Of a stretch of 64,000 bases of DNA, positions 28,976 to 31,432 are shown piece after piece. The notes below the pieces were generated by a model. That model did not search any database, was not told the DNA's origin, and saw only the letters and a list, made by a program, of their open reading frames with translations. A program made the translations under genes and the position numbers. This stretch comes from Escherichia coli (GTDB lineage Bacteria > Pseudomonadota > Gammaproteobacteria > Enterobacterales > Enterobacteriaceae): NCBI RefSeq assembly GCF_050920415.1, contig NZ_CP169309.1; one strand, given 5' to 3'. Numbering within the stretch: the stretch's first letter is position 1; every line of letters starts with the position of its first letter.

Positions 28976-31432
28976 ATGAGCACTGAAAAAGAAGAATTTG
29001 CGCTATATTGCGAAGCAAAAAATGACAAAGTCAGAAAACGCCTGGGAATTAAAGGTGGTTTTTACTGGACCACAGCAAAAAAATTATCTGTTGCCATCTC
29101 CCGTTGTATTACCGCAATGGATGACAACGATTATGATGAAGACGACTTTAAAAAACCCGTCCGCGTCCATTTACCCGTTGTGAATGACCTGCCTCCGGAA
29201 GGTGTGTTTGATACCGAATTCTGCAACCGATACGAAAAAGGCGGGGAAGATGGTATCACAATGGTATTTATCGCGCCCTCGCCCTCTGTTCAGGACAAAC
29301 CAGCCAGCACTGACAATACCAACGTCAACGGCGAAGACATGACTGAGATTGAGGAGAATATGCTACTCCCGGTTTCTGGCCAGATACTTCCCATTCGCTG
29401 GCTTGCTCAGCACGGCAGCGAAAAACCGATCACTCACGTTTCGCGGGGCGAACTGCGCGCATTACATAACGCACAGGATGAAAAACTTCCCGCCGTTACC
29501 GCGCTGGCCATCTCAAATAAAGCAGCACAACTCGAACCGCTGGAAATTCGCGATCTCCACAAACTGGTTCGTGACACTGACAAAGTTTTCCCTAACCCTG
29601 GCAATTCAGACCTGGGACTGATGACTGCTTTTTTCGAAGCATACCTGGGCGCTGACTACACCGATCGCGGTCTGCTTACAAAAGAGTGGATGAAGGGGAA
29701 TCGTGTTTCACGCATCATCCGCACGGCTTCCGGTGCTAATGCTGGCGGCGGGAACAAAACCGATCGCAATCCGAATTTAGTACACACCTTCGATACGCTG
29801 GATGTGGAGATTGCAGCGGCCACACTTCCGATGGATTTTAATATTTATGAAATTCCGGGCAGCGTTTATCGTCGCGCAAAAGAAGTCGTCCGGAAGAAAG
29901 AAAGTCCGTTCAAAGAATGGTCCGCAACACTCCGCGCAATCCCGGGTATCCTGGATTATTCCCGCGCCGCTATTTTTGCACTTATCCGGAGCGCACACCC
30001 TGACTTTTATCATTACCCGGGACGCCTTCAGGGGTATATAAACACCTATTTAACGGAGACTGATCACGAGAACCCTACCGAAGAAACTCTCGCTGCTGCA
30101 CGACATACACCGGAAAAAGATATCCTGAAAGAAGTTAACCGCGAACTGGCTGCTAAACGCGAAACAGAAGAAGAAAAAAATAATGATGAAAAATCACAAC
30201 CGTCTGACGCAATGGCAGATGAACAGGCAACGACTGAAGCAATGGAGCCGGATACAACTGAACTTCGCCAGGACACGCAATCGCTGGATACTCAGGCACA
30301 GATAGATCCGGTTAATCAGGTAAAAGTTACCGCTGACGAAGTAAACAAAATTATGCAGGCAGCCAATATCAGCCTGCCTGACGCCAGTCAGTTGCTCGCT
30401 GCATCACGTGGTGAATTTGTTGCAGGGATTAGCGCCCCGAATGATCCGAAATGGGTGAAGGGGATTGAAACCCGCGATTCTGTGAACCAGAACCAGCAAG
30501 AAACGGCACGGAACGACCAGAAAGCGGAACAAAACAGCCCAAATGCGCAACAAAACGAGCCAGAAACGAAACAATCCGAACCAGTAGTGCAACAGGAACC
30601 GGAAAAAGTCTGCACCGTCTGCGGTCAGAGCAGCGGCGGCAACTGTCCTGACTGTGGCGCGGTCATGGGAAACGCAACATACCAGGAAACATTCGATGAA
30701 GAGAATCAGGTTGAAGCTCAGGAGAATGATCCGGAGGAAATGGAAGGCGCTGAACATCCACACAAGGAGAACACTGGAGGCAATCAGCATCACGCCAGCG
30801 ATAATGAAACTGGCGAGGCAACAGATCCCTTAATTAAGGTGAACAGTTATCACAATATCACATCCACAAGCAGGTCATGTGACCATCTTATGATCGACCT
30901 TGAAACCATGGGAAAAAATCCCGATGCCCCGATTATCTCAATAGGTGCAATATTTTTCGATCCGCAAACCGGAAATATGGGGCCGGAATTTAGTAAGACC
31001 ATCGATCTGGAAACTGCTGGCGGAGTCATTAATCGTGACACCATAAAATGGTGGCTTAAGCAATCACGCGAGGCGCAATCTGCCATTCTGACCGATGAAA
31101 TCCCGTTAGATGATGCACTGCTGCAATTGCGGGAATTTATCGACGAAAACTCCGGTGAATTTTTTGTTCAGGTCTGGGGTAATGGGGCCAACTTCGACAA
31201 CGTGATTTTACGCCGTTCATACAAACGACAGGGTATCCCCTGCCCTTGGCGCTACTGCAACGATCGCGATGTACGCACAATCGTTGAGCTGGGGAAAGCC
31301 ATAGACTTCGATGCCAGAACAGCTATCCCATTCGAAGGTGAGCGCCATAATGCACTTGATGACGCTCGTTACCAGGCAAAATACGTTTCAGCTATCTGGC
31401 AAAAACTGATCCCGAGTCAGGCTGATTTTTAA
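28976..31432 (+). CDS. Large exonuclease-like protein (YdfE-like) with C-terminal DEDDh (DnaQ-like) 3'-5' exonuclease domain
   Basis: 818 aa; C-terminal MIDLETMG .. HNALDDARYQ motifs; internal CTVCGQSSGGNCPDCG zinc-ribbon; acidic low-complexity linker. Confidence 0.7.
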   Translation: MSTEKEEFALYCEAKNDKVRKRLGIKGGFYWTTAKKLSVAISRCITAMDDNDYDEDDFKKPVRVHLPVVNDLPPEGVFDTEFCNRYEKGGEDGITMVFIAPSPSVQDKPASTDNTNVNGEDMTEIEENMLLPVSGQILPIRWLAQHGSEKPITHVSRGELRALHNAQDEKLPAVTALAISNKAAQLEPLEIRDLHKLVRDTDKVFPNPGNSDLGLMTAFFEAYLGADYTDRGLLTKEWMKGNRVSRIIRTASGANAGGGNKTDRNPNLVHTFDTLDVEIAAATLPMDFNIYEIPGSVYRRAKEVVRKKESPFKEWSATLRAIPGILDYSRAAIFALIRSAHPDFYHYPGRLQGYINTYLTETDHENPTEETLAAARHTPEKDILKEVNRELAAKRETEEEKNNDEKSQPSDAMADEQATTEAMEPDTTELRQDTQSLDTQAQIDPVNQVKVTADEVNKIMQAANISLPDASQLLAASRGEFVAGISAPNDPKWVKGIETRDSVNQNQQETARNDQKAEQNSPNAQQNEPETKQSEPVVQQEPEKVCTVCGQSSGGNCPDCGAVMGNATYQETFDEENQVEAQENDPEEMEGAEHPHKENTGGNQHHASDNETGEATDPLIKVNSYHNITSTSRSCDHLMIDLETMGKNPDAPIISIGAIFFDPQTGNMGPEFSKTIDLETAGGVINRDTIKWWLKQSREAQSAILTDEIPLDDALLQLREFIDENSGEFFVQVWGNGANFDNVILRRSYKRQGIPCPWRYCNDRDVRTIVELGKAIDFDARTAIPFEGERHNALDDARYQAKYVSAIWQKLIPSQADF

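What the first reader, a model, noticed from the sequence alone, without database searches (positions are those of the whole stretch)
28976..31432. 818-aa exonuclease-like protein with DEDDh domain, zinc ribbon and acidic linker
The C-terminal ~180 aa carry DnaQ-like motifs (DLETMG, HNALDDARYQ). Upstream are a CxxC-X-CxxC zinc ribbon and a long acidic low-complexity linker. It occupies the exo/recE position and may be the intact form of the IS-interrupted ydfE of K-12 Qin. The N-terminal ~400 aa are unassigned.
Basis: partly seen in the sequence, partly recalled or inferred. Interest (0 to 1): 0.45.

Follow-up and report, generated by a model that had tools for sequence, protein, structure and literature searches.

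The report
Prophage RecE-like protein with swapped exonuclease
This is a common but never-studied E. coli prophage protein that keeps the mysterious front two-thirds of the recombination enzyme RecE but carries a nuclease of the opposite polarity (a T4 DexA-like 3'-5' exonuclease). It also shows what the broken K-12 gene ydfE once encoded.

Summary
The 818-aa ORF (28976-31432, +) is real. Its C-terminal domain (aa 637-818) is a DEDDh 3'-5' exonuclease of the Rv2179c/T4-DexA family. All five catalytic residues are present (D641, E643, D741, H791, D796) and the domain is under purifying selection.

They are 55% identical to K-12 RecE residues 50-591, including the CxxC-x7-CxxC motif and the acidic linkers. 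Homology to RecE stops exactly where RecE's PD-(D/E)XK nuclease would begin. The protein is therefore a RecE scaffold with a polarity-swapped nuclease.

No recT or other annealase lies nearby. The gene is the last gene of a dicB-ydfD operon, directly upstream of xis-int.

The ydfE idea is half right. Intact ydfE (823 aa, e.g. ATCC 25922) occupies the same slot and shares aa 441-818 at 70-97% identity. Its first ~270 aa show no detectable similarity to the window protein.

The N-terminal 400 aa fold confidently (pLDDT 91) but have no solved structural relative.

The exact protein is already in NCBI, auto-named "exonuclease". I found no experimental study of the fusion. Its biological role is inferred: most likely an induction-time DNA 3'-end exonuclease, less likely HREX-type defence. 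Interest is moderate.

The parts
28976..31432 (+). 818-aa ORF (91 kDa, pI 4.8): RecE-type N-terminal scaffold fused to a DEDDh 3'-5' exonuclease
28976..30175 (+). Folded N-terminal region, aa 1-400. A small alpha/beta domain (aa 1-100) is followed by a disordered loop (aa 103-111) and helical domains (aa 120-400). Includes Pfam Exonuc_VIII at aa 57-189. Function unknown.
30086..30385 (+). Acidic low-complexity linker 1 (aa 371-470)
   Evidence: D+E 23%; pLDDT falls after aa 380
30386..30475 (+). Conserved motif LLAASRGEFVxGISxPNDPKWVKGIxTRD (aa 471-500), shared by RecE, intact YdfE and this protein
   Evidence: 77-83% identity in all three pairwise comparisons for block 481-520; alignments
30476..30610 (+). 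Q/N/E-rich low-complexity stretch (aa 501-545)
   Evidence: Q+N 36%; predicted disordered
30611..30700 (+). CxxC-x7-CxxC zinc-ribbon-like motif (C546, C549, C557, C560) plus the conserved tail GAVMGxATYQETFDE (aa 546-575)
   Evidence: The same motif is in K-12 RecE (aa 517) and intact YdfE (aa 551), but in only 7 of 67 long family members. It is not confidently modelled, pLDDT about 48-50.
30701..30883 (+). Acidic linker 2 (aa 576-636). Homology to RecE ends here, at about aa 620.
30884..31429 (+). DEDDh 3'-5' exonuclease domain (aa 637-818), Rv2179c-like / T4 DexA-like. Catalytic residues D641, E643, D741, H791, D796.
   Evidence: Pfam 7.7e-67. PDB sequence hit to 8KEL DexA, 5e-6. Residue mapping. 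Model pLDDT >90. Foldseek top hit 8KEL, 1.7e-10. dN/dS 0.107 against intact YdfE.
28280..28329 (+). DicF-like sRNA, upstream in the same transcription direction
   Evidence: Rfam RF00039, 44.1 bits (gathering score 48), E=5.7e-8
28509..28697 (+). dicB homologue (cell-division inhibitor), an upstream operon member
   Evidence: DNA alignment to K-12 Qin; annotated dicB in the 98%-identical locus L003
28694..28885 (+). ydfD homologue (DUF1482 lysis protein), immediately upstream
31485..31763 (+). Excisionase, immediately downstream
   Evidence: phrog_629 excisionase, 5e-26
31732..32850 (+). Tyrosine integrase; marks the end of the prophage
   Evidence: ORF; integrase annotated in the homologous loci
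26322..26729 (+). DicA/CI-like HTH repressor at the head of the rightward early operon
   Evidence: PHROG transcriptional repressor families

Best explanation
What it is. The gene encodes a modular lambdoid-prophage early protein. A RecE-type N-terminal scaffold (aa 1-620) consists of folded domains of unknown function, acidic disordered linkers and an optional Cys4 motif. It is tethered to an active DEDDh 3'-5' exonuclease of the T4 DexA / Rv2179c family (aa 637-818). That domain sits exactly where RecE carries its PD-(D/E)XK 5'-3' exonuclease. The protein is a mosaic sister of the intact ydfE gene of Qin-type prophages.

Shown here: the domain boundaries, the conserved catalytic pentad, the DexA-like fold, purifying selection on the nuclease, the operon position, and the absence of any partner annealase.

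Inferred:
1. The gene is silent in the lysogen and is made when the DicA-type repressor is relieved, together with DicF, DicB and YdfD and just ahead of Xis and Int.
2. The nuclease removes nucleotides from DNA 3' ends, on ssDNA tails or linear duplex ends. The N-terminal scaffold probably acts by protein-protein contacts rather than DNA binding, because it is strongly acidic. It would direct or regulate the nuclease in the same way it serves RecE's nuclease.
3. With no RecT/Bet/Erf-type partner, it is not a classical two-component exonuclease-annealase recombinase. It more likely trims or destroys 3' ends, of host, competitor or replication-intermediate DNA, during the switch to lytic growth.
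For: Architecture:
- The NCBIfam RecE model matches only aa 1-621, model positions 1-603 of 877, scoring 882.7 bits against a cutoff of 1269.
- BLASTP to K-12 RecE gives 55% identity over aa 58-620, and nothing after that.
- Pfam finds PF06630 and PF16473.

Nuclease:
- D641, E643, D741, H791 and D796 align to DexA D7, E9, D119, H186 and D191. They are conserved in at least 40 of 44 homologues.
- The AF2 domain model has pLDDT >90.
- Best PDB matches are DexA 8KEL, then RNase T, DnaQ and Orn.
- dN/dS is 0.107 for the domain against about 0.5 for the linkers.
- T4 DexA and the E. coli homologue EcD are experimentally 3'-5' DNA exonucleases (PMC12153337).

Operon position and regulation:
- The gene order is repressor, DicF-like RNA, dicB, ydfD, this gene, xis, int, all on the + strand.
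- In K-12 the dicB promoter transcribes dicB-ydfD-ydfE-insD-intQ and is repressed by DicA (PMC11430063).

No annealase:
- None was found in the early-left operon or the nin region of this prophage.
- None was found in seven other contexts: L003, L006, L008/L009, L010, L011 and L012.
- Rac, in contrast, has recE-recT.

Portable scaffold:
- Among family representatives of at least 450 aa, 15 end in DEDDh, 25-27 end in RecE-C, and about 36 end in a third shared domain.

Charge: the whole protein has net charge -49, and aa 1-400 have -12.6.
Against: - No enzymatic or genetic data exist for this fusion.
- The substrate, DNA or RNA, cannot be read from sequence. The Pfam family is named for an exoribonuclease and NCBI labels the protein '3'-5' exoribonuclease'.
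- Expression timing is extrapolated from K-12 Qin. A weak internal promoter cannot be excluded, because the promoter scan was no better than shuffled sequence.
- The role of the N-terminal scaffold is unknown even for RecE (review PMC11611040), so 'targeting/regulation' is a guess.
- A homologous stand-alone domain (EcD) was reported to act in anti-phage defence. That would be a different biological role.
Confidence: 0.6

Rival explanations
1. Anti-phage defence nuclease of the HREX type. The DexA-like domain selectively degrades hydroxymethylcytosine-modified DNA of superinfecting T-even phages and so protects the lysogen.
For: PMC12153337 reports that an E. coli DexA homologue (EcD) digests T4 DNA but not unmodified dsDNA, and protects against T4 when plasmid-borne. 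The neighbouring gene dicB is known to protect against some phages (title and abstract listed). The gene is very widespread in E. coli prophages.
Against: - By that paper's own signature this domain does not fit. DexA W152 aligns to C761, D169 aligns to A775, and the tetramer residue D90 is retained as D713.
- EcD is a short stand-alone protein (starts MIDTET..., ends ...TIPETY; primers), not a RecE-scaffold fusion.
- PADLOC gives no hit.
- The gene lies in a repressor-controlled operon with toxic dicB/ydfD, so it is probably not expressed in the lysogen.
Confidence: 0.15
2. A true recombination exonuclease. It prepares DNA ends for homologous recombination together with host RecA/RecFOR or an unlinked annealase, so it is functionally equivalent to RecE despite the opposite polarity.
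For: It occupies the exo/recE slot and shares about 600 aa with RecE. The prophage keeps a RusA Holliday-junction resolvase. Full-length RecE's N-terminal region enhances linear-linear recombination (Fu et al. 2012, as cited in PMC11611040). A third family branch may carry a Rad52-like annealase domain, but the Pfam hit is weak, i-E 0.0085.
Against: 3'-5' degradation removes the 3' tail that RecA and single-strand annealing proteins need. No annealase was found in any of eight contexts. The apparent RecT fusions in the family look like deletion products of recE-recT.
Confidence: 0.15
3. An exoribonuclease that trims RNA 3' ends after induction, for example processing or turnover of operon transcripts such as DicF, or of host RNAs.
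For: The Pfam family is named for the M. tuberculosis 3'-5' exoribonuclease Rv2179c. Structural neighbours include RNase T and oligoribonuclease. A DicF-like sRNA is encoded about 650 bp upstream in the same operon.
Against: The closest sequence and structure relative is the DNA exonuclease DexA. The domain replaces a DNA exonuclease on a recombination-protein scaffold. The E. coli homologue that has been tested acts on DNA.
Confidence: 0.08
4. A decaying, functionless prophage remnant: a mosaic produced by illegitimate recombination and simply carried along.
For: The family is highly mosaic. Many truncated or deleted versions exist, including K-12 ydfE cut by IS2, the deletion fusions P0341/P0330/P0357, and the split gene in phage 606R7.
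Against: The reading frame is intact at 818 aa. The catalytic residues are conserved. dN/dS is 0.107 on the nuclease domain. Full-length copies occur in 1271 of 5426 complete E. coli genomes, and the ydfE-type 5' part occurs in 3839.
Confidence: 0.03

Closest known systems
RecE (exodeoxyribonuclease VIII) of the Rac prophage, E. coli K-12
   Same: The N-terminal ~600 aa are shared, at 55% identity over aa 58-620. This covers Pfam Exonuc_VIII, the PNDPKWVKG motif, the CxxC-x7-CxxC motif and the acidic linkers. Both lie in the early-left operon near xis/int.
   Different: The C-terminal catalytic domain is a DEDDh 3'-5' exonuclease instead of RecE's PD-(D/E)XK 5'-3' exonuclease. There is no recT downstream. 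The protein scores below the NCBIfam RecE cutoff, 882.7 against 1269.
Intact YdfE of Qin-type prophages (823 aa, e.g. E. coli ATCC 25922 WP_001546201.1); K-12 ydfE is its IS2-truncated 5' remnant
   Same: Same chromosomal slot, dicB-ydfD-gene-xis-int. aa 441-818 are 70-97% identical, covering the linkers, the Cys4 motif and the DEDDh domain.
   Different: The first ~270 aa show no BLASTP-detectable similarity. The window protein has the RecE/Exonuc_VIII-type N-terminus and YdfE has another (PF27430/PF27432 in the newest Pfam).
T4 DexA (PDB 8KEL/8KEN) and the E. coli DexA homologue EcD ('HREX', PMC12153337)
   Same: Same Pfam family (PF16473), same DEDDh catalytic pentad, and best structural match.
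   Different: About 26% identity to DexA. Several DexA loops are absent. The reported 5hmC-recognition residues W152 and D169 are not conserved (C761, A775), and D90 is retained. The domain is fused to a 620-aa scaffold rather than stand-alone.
Stand-alone Rv2179c-like exonucleases of lambdoid phages (e.g. mEp460 190-aa protein; E. coli P0313, 180 aa)
   Same: 59-88% identical to the C-terminal domain. In mEp460 the gene also sits immediately upstream of xis-int, with no recognised annealase.
   Different: They lack the whole RecE-type scaffold.

Membership tests
DEDDh (DnaQ-like) 3'-5' exonucleases, Pfam PF16473 Rv2179c-like / T4 DexA | Exo I motif D-x-E | tested here: met
   D641 and E643 (MIDLETMG) align to DexA D7 and E9. 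D is in 44/44 and E in 41/44 homologues.
DEDDh (DnaQ-like) 3'-5' exonucleases, Pfam PF16473 Rv2179c-like / T4 DexA | Exo II aspartate | tested here: met
   D741 (NFDN) aligns to DexA D119; conserved in 40/44.
DEDDh (DnaQ-like) 3'-5' exonucleases, Pfam PF16473 Rv2179c-like / T4 DexA | Exo III motif H-x4-D (the 'h' subtype) | tested here: met
   H791 and D796 (HNALDD) align to DexA H186 and D191; conserved in 42/44 and 41/44.
DEDDh (DnaQ-like) 3'-5' exonucleases, Pfam PF16473 Rv2179c-like / T4 DexA | Full-length significant profile match and RNase H-like fold | tested here: met
   PF16473 E=7.7e-67 over 2-177 of 177 positions. AF2 pLDDT >90 for aa 637-818. Foldseek top hits are 8KEL DexA, RNase T, DnaQ and Orn.
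DEDDh (DnaQ-like) 3'-5' exonucleases, Pfam PF16473 Rv2179c-like / T4 DexA | Metal-dependent 3'-5' exonuclease activity | not testable with these tools
   Needs a biochemical assay.
RecE / exodeoxyribonuclease VIII (NCBIfam NF007259 equivalog) | RecE N-terminal region (Pfam Exonuc_VIII and following segments) | tested here: met
   NCBIfam match of aa 1-621 to model positions 1-603. PF06630 1e-26. 55% identity to K-12 RecE 50-591.
RecE / exodeoxyribonuclease VIII (NCBIfam NF007259 equivalog) | C-terminal PD-(D/E)XK 5'-3' exonuclease domain (RecE 606-866) | tested here: not met
   No alignment beyond aa 620. Model positions 604-877 are unmatched and the score, 882.7, is below the curated cutoff of 1269. 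Forced-alignment identity is 17-27%.
RecE / exodeoxyribonuclease VIII (NCBIfam NF007259 equivalog) | Adjacent partner annealase gene (recT) | tested here: not met
   The gene is followed directly by xis and int. No annealase family was found in the early or nin regions.
HREX / EcD-type anti-phage DexA homologues (PMC12153337) | Conserved 5hmC-recognition residues (DexA W152 and D169) | tested here: not met
   W152 aligns to C761 and D169 aligns to A775 in the 44-sequence alignment. Caveat: a conserved W758 lies 3 residues upstream, and loop alignment at 26% identity is uncertain.
HREX / EcD-type anti-phage DexA homologues (PMC12153337) | Loss of the tetramerisation residue (DexA D90) | tested here: not met
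   D713 is retained at the D90 position.
HREX / EcD-type anti-phage DexA homologues (PMC12153337) | Protection against T4 and selective cleavage of 5hmC DNA | not testable with these tools
   Needs plaque and nuclease assays.
Intact YdfE (Qin prophage exonuclease) | Same locus: downstream of dicB-ydfD, upstream of xis-int | tested here: met
Intact YdfE (Qin prophage exonuclease) | Shared central and C-terminal part (linkers, Cys4 motif, DEDDh domain) | tested here: met
   70-97% identity over aa 441-818.
Intact YdfE (Qin prophage exonuclease) | YdfE N-terminal ~255 aa, the part that survives in K-12 | tested here: not met
   BLASTP best E=5.1. DNA homology to Qin ends at the start codon. Forced-alignment identity is 16-37%.

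The most novel reading that the evidence does not exclude
The RecE-type N-terminal region may be a portable delivery or regulatory module. Rac/Qin-type lambdoid phages would combine it with interchangeable DNA-end effectors: a 5'-3' PD-(D/E)XK exonuclease in RecE, a 3'-5' DEDDh exonuclease here and in YdfE, and possibly a Rad52-like annealase in a third branch. On this reading the DEDDh version performs a so far undescribed, annealase-independent function at DNA 3' ends during induction. One example would be erasing 3' ssDNA tails to blunt host RecA/RecBCD action or DNA-sensing defences. This would also finally assign a role to RecE's enigmatic N-terminal 600 residues.
Probability: 0.15. Interest if true: 0.7.

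Novelty: new variant of a known kind. Interest (0 to 1): 0.4.

Why it matters
**RecE's N-terminal two-thirds.** These have had no assigned function for decades, although they boost linear-linear recombineering. Here the same scaffold is found naturally joined to a nuclease of opposite polarity and without RecT. That argues its role is independent of 5'-3' resection and RecT loading. It also offers natural domain-swap variants for testing the scaffold's role.

**K-12 ydfE.** The work identifies the pseudogene as the 5' stump of an 823-aa 3'-5' exonuclease. That allele type is present in most E. coli genomes.

**The dicBF operon.** A DexA-like nuclease becomes the last gene of the dicBF operon. 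This is relevant to current work on the operon's toxicity and phage-exclusion effects.

**Limits.** The protein itself is abundant and already auto-annotated as an exonuclease, so the advance is interpretive rather than a new kind of system.

Tried and rejected
1. **Looking for EcD, the only tested E. coli homologue.** I searched with its cloning primers. The single viral-contig hit (L007) was a chance match outside any ORF, so identity to EcD could not be measured. Only its termini (MIDTET......TIPETY) are known to differ from this protein.
3. **PADLOC defence models.** No hit.
4. **RecT fusions as a natural architecture.** Rejected. P0123 and P0242 look like recE-recT deletion products.
5. 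**Zinc ribbon as a defining feature.** Rejected. It is present in 7 of 67 long members and is not confidently modelled.
6. **Own promoter or terminator for the gene.** The consensus scans were no better than shuffled sequence.
7. **Literature searches.** I searched for the RecE-N/DEDDh fusion, Rv2179c-like phage proteins and DexA prophage homologues. No paper on this protein was found.
8. **The word-indexed homologue searches.** They returned almost only partial E. coli fragments, from assembly breaks in repeated prophage genes, and added little.
9. **The third C-terminal domain class.** Pfam gives only a weak Rad52 hit, i-E 0.0085, and there is no PDB match. It is left unresolved.
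Full report
**Observation**

The window contains an uninterrupted ATG-initiated ORF at 28976-31432 on the + strand, encoding 818 aa. A GAGG ribosome-binding site lies just upstream (sequence).
- DLETMG at aa 641, NFDN at 739 and HNALDD at 791
- the two CxxC pairs at aa 546 and 557

The linkers are acidic and low in complexity. D+E is 23% in aa 371-470 and 576-636, and Q+N is 36% in aa 501-545. Segment 371-636 carries a net charge of -31.

**The C-terminal domain**

Pfam places an Rv2179c-like 3'-5' exonuclease domain (PF16473) at aa 637-808, with E=7.7e-67 over the whole model. The only solved relatives by sequence are T4 DexA structures 8KEL/8KEN.

In a 44-sequence alignment that includes DexA, the DEDDh pentad is intact. 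D641, E643, D741, H791 and D796 correspond to DexA D7, E9, D119, H186 and D191, and each is conserved in at least 40 of 44 homologues.

An AlphaFold model of aa 460-818 gives pLDDT >90 for the domain. The preceding 175 residues, including the Cys4 motif, are modelled as disordered. Foldseek against the PDB ranks DexA first (E=1.7e-10), followed by RNase T, a DnaQ domain and oligoribonucleases.

Against the intact ydfE allele, the domain has dN/dS = 0.107, whereas the linkers are near 0.5. The exonuclease assignment stands.

**The N-terminal two-thirds**

- The NCBIfam equivalog model for RecE (exodeoxyribonuclease VIII) matches aa 1-621 to model positions 1-603 of 877. The score of 882.7 bits is below the curated cutoff of 1269, because the last third of the model is unmatched.
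- Pfam finds Exonuc_VIII at aa 57-189.
- BLASTP against K-12 RecE gives 55% identity from aa 58 to 620, equal to RecE 50-591. This covers the motif LLAASRGEFVxGISxPNDPKWVKG, the CxxC-x7-CxxC motif and the acidic tail. After that there is nothing.
- RecE's crystallised PD-(D/E)XK nuclease begins at residue 606. The review PMC11611040 describes the nuclease domain as 564-866 and the N-terminal domain as 'of unknown function'.

So the homology breaks precisely at the linker that precedes the catalytic domain. This protein is a RecE scaffold on which the 5'-3' nuclease has been replaced by a 3'-5' nuclease.

**The ydfE question**

K-12 YdfE (306 aa, a pseudogene cut by IS2) has no significant BLASTP similarity to the window protein. 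DNA homology between the window and Qin runs through dicB, ydfD and the intergenic region, and then stops at the start codon. Three further results change the picture.

1. The newest Pfam annotations attached to related proteins include a 'YdfE_C' family between Exonuc_VIII and the DEDDh domain. P0175 matches YdfE aa 80-255 at 58% identity.
2. Some E. coli proteins join the YdfE N-terminus by deletion to the C-terminal part of this same DEDDh domain.
3. The 765-nt K-12 ydfE 5' part occurs in 3839 of 5426 complete E. coli genomes. Where IS2 is absent, it is annotated 'exonuclease'.

In ATCC 25922 the gene is an intact 823-aa CDS in the Qin slot, ordered dicB-ydfD-gene-xis-int-rspB. It is 70-97% identical to the window protein over aa 441-818, but only 16-37% in a forced alignment over the first 280 aa.

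K-12 ydfE is thus the stump of a long DEDDh exonuclease. The window protein is its mosaic sister allele, carrying a RecE-type N-terminus. The three proteins (RecE, intact YdfE and this one) share best the segment aa ~480-600, at 65-87% identity in all pairs.

**Family survey**

An exhaustive search with aa 1-400 finds only 217 representatives at 50% clustering among 1.84 billion proteins. This is a small family, apparently confined to Enterobacterales. Among representatives of at least 450 aa:
- 15 end in the DEDDh domain
- 25-27 end in a RecE-C-like nuclease
- 2 end in RecT, and these look like recE-recT deletion products
- about 36 share a third C-terminal domain (PHROG 2489/7838), whose only outside hint is a weak Rad52 Pfam match, i-E 0.0085

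The Cys4 motif occurs in only 7 of 67 long members, so it is an optional insert.

**Genomic context**

The gene is the last cargo gene of the rightward early operon of a lambdoid prophage. The order is:
- DicA/CI-like repressor (26322-26729)
- two small or unknown ORFs
- a DicF-like RNA (28280-28329; 44 bits, just under Rfam's gathering score)
- dicB, then ydfD, then this gene
- xis (31485-31763) and int (31732-32850)

No RecT, Bet, Erf or Rad52-type annealase is recognisable in this operon or in the nin region. The nin region does carry RusA. The same gene-xis-int arrangement without an annealase is seen in:
- a 98%-identical E. coli locus
- phage vB_EcoM-606R7
- three distant representatives
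- the ydfE locus

Phage mEp460 carries the stand-alone domain in the same place. Rac, by contrast, has recE-recT. In K-12 the dicB promoter transcribes dicB-ydfD-ydfE-insD-intQ and is repressed by DicA (PMC11430063). I infer that the window gene is likewise silent in the lysogen and expressed on derepression.

**Mechanism**

Shown here: a conserved, selected DEDDh active site on a RecE scaffold, in an induction-controlled operon, with no annealase partner.

Inferred: on induction the protein degrades nucleic-acid 3' ends. DNA is the most likely substrate for three reasons:
- its closest relative is the DNA exonuclease DexA
- the tested E. coli homologue EcD acts on DNA (PMC12153337)
- the domain replaces a DNA exonuclease

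The scaffold presumably directs or regulates the nuclease as it does for RecE. Because 3'-5' digestion destroys the 3' tail used by RecA and annealases, a classical exonuclease-annealase recombination role is unlikely. Trimming or destroying 3' ends of host, competitor or replication-intermediate DNA is the best guess.

The HREX defence reading is possible, but this domain fails that paper's own sequence signature. W152 aligns to C761, D169 aligns to A775, and D90 is retained as D713. The protein is not a stand-alone enzyme, has no PADLOC hit, and sits in a repressed operon. An RNA substrate and simple decay are minor rivals.

**Novelty**

The exact 818-aa sequence is already in NCBI, for example EET4844767.1, seen on 67 contigs and named '3'-5' exoribonuclease' or 'exonuclease'. 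The ydfE-type 90% cluster has 23,183 members. Full-length window-type copies occur in 1271 of 5426 complete E. coli genomes.

I found no paper on the fusion. It is therefore an abundant, auto-annotated but uncharacterised protein. It is a variant of known kinds (RecE scaffold plus DexA-like nuclease) rather than something categorically new.

Its value lies in two things. It says that RecE's N-terminal region is portable across nucleases of opposite polarity, and it resolves what K-12 ydfE was.

Noticed in passing
window 28280-28329 (+): A DicF-like sRNA lies upstream of dicB. It scores 44.1 bits, just under Rfam's gathering score of 48 (E=5.7e-8), so the default scan missed it. A partial STnc100-like match follows at 28341-28486 (36.6 bits).
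   Followed up: partly
window 32870-33675 (+): Immediately outside the integrase lie isrK and C4-antisense/a1b1 RNA matches (32870-33067). They are followed by a 190-aa ORF (33103-33675). Together they look like a P1/P7-type c4-ant or isrK-anrP immunity module, possibly from a second element.
   Followed up: no
window 33712-34490 (-): Two ORFs (176 aa and 92 aa) lie between the prophage end and potC. The 176-aa protein gives only weak coiled-coil-type PADLOC hits (LmuB, DndD, JetC; E about 1e-4). Function unknown.
   Followed up: no
P0184 aa ~520-786 and 35 other representatives (PHROG 2489 / 7838): A third branch of the RecE-N family carries a shared C-terminal domain labelled 'exonuclease' by annotation transfer. 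It has no nuclease match. It does have a weak Rad52_Rad22 Pfam hit (i-E 0.0085) and a Rad52-like '...KKALSLLGF...' motif. It may be an annealase fused to the RecE scaffold.
   Followed up: partly
P0341, P0330, P0357 (E. coli proteins of 209-261 aa): These are in-frame deletion products that join the YdfE N-terminus (aa 1-134, 1-63 or 1-95) to the C-terminal part of the DEDDh domain. They lack the D-x-E motif. They are probably inactive remnants and show frequent decay at this locus.
   Followed up: partly
window 28923-28936 (+): A short GC-rich stem-loop (TGCCAGCAATGGCA) lies in the 90-bp ydfD-exonuclease intergenic region. The region is nearly identical in K-12 Qin upstream of ydfE. It could be an attenuator or processing site.
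   Followed up: no
window 13697-13888, 15296-15540, 20672-20847 (-): The prophage also carries a full STnc100 sRNA, three tRNA genes and a sok antitoxin RNA (hok/sok module).
   Followed up: no
L008/L009/L011, about 140 bp upstream of the exonuclease gene: In distant relatives the gene just upstream of the RecE-N/DEDDh fusion is a 112-aa Rrf2-family protein instead of dicB-ydfD.
   Followed up: no
PMC12153337, legend of Fig. 5: The paper lists the DexA catalytic residues as 'D7, E12', but residue 12 of T4 DexA is glycine. The Exo I glutamate is E9.
   Followed up: yes
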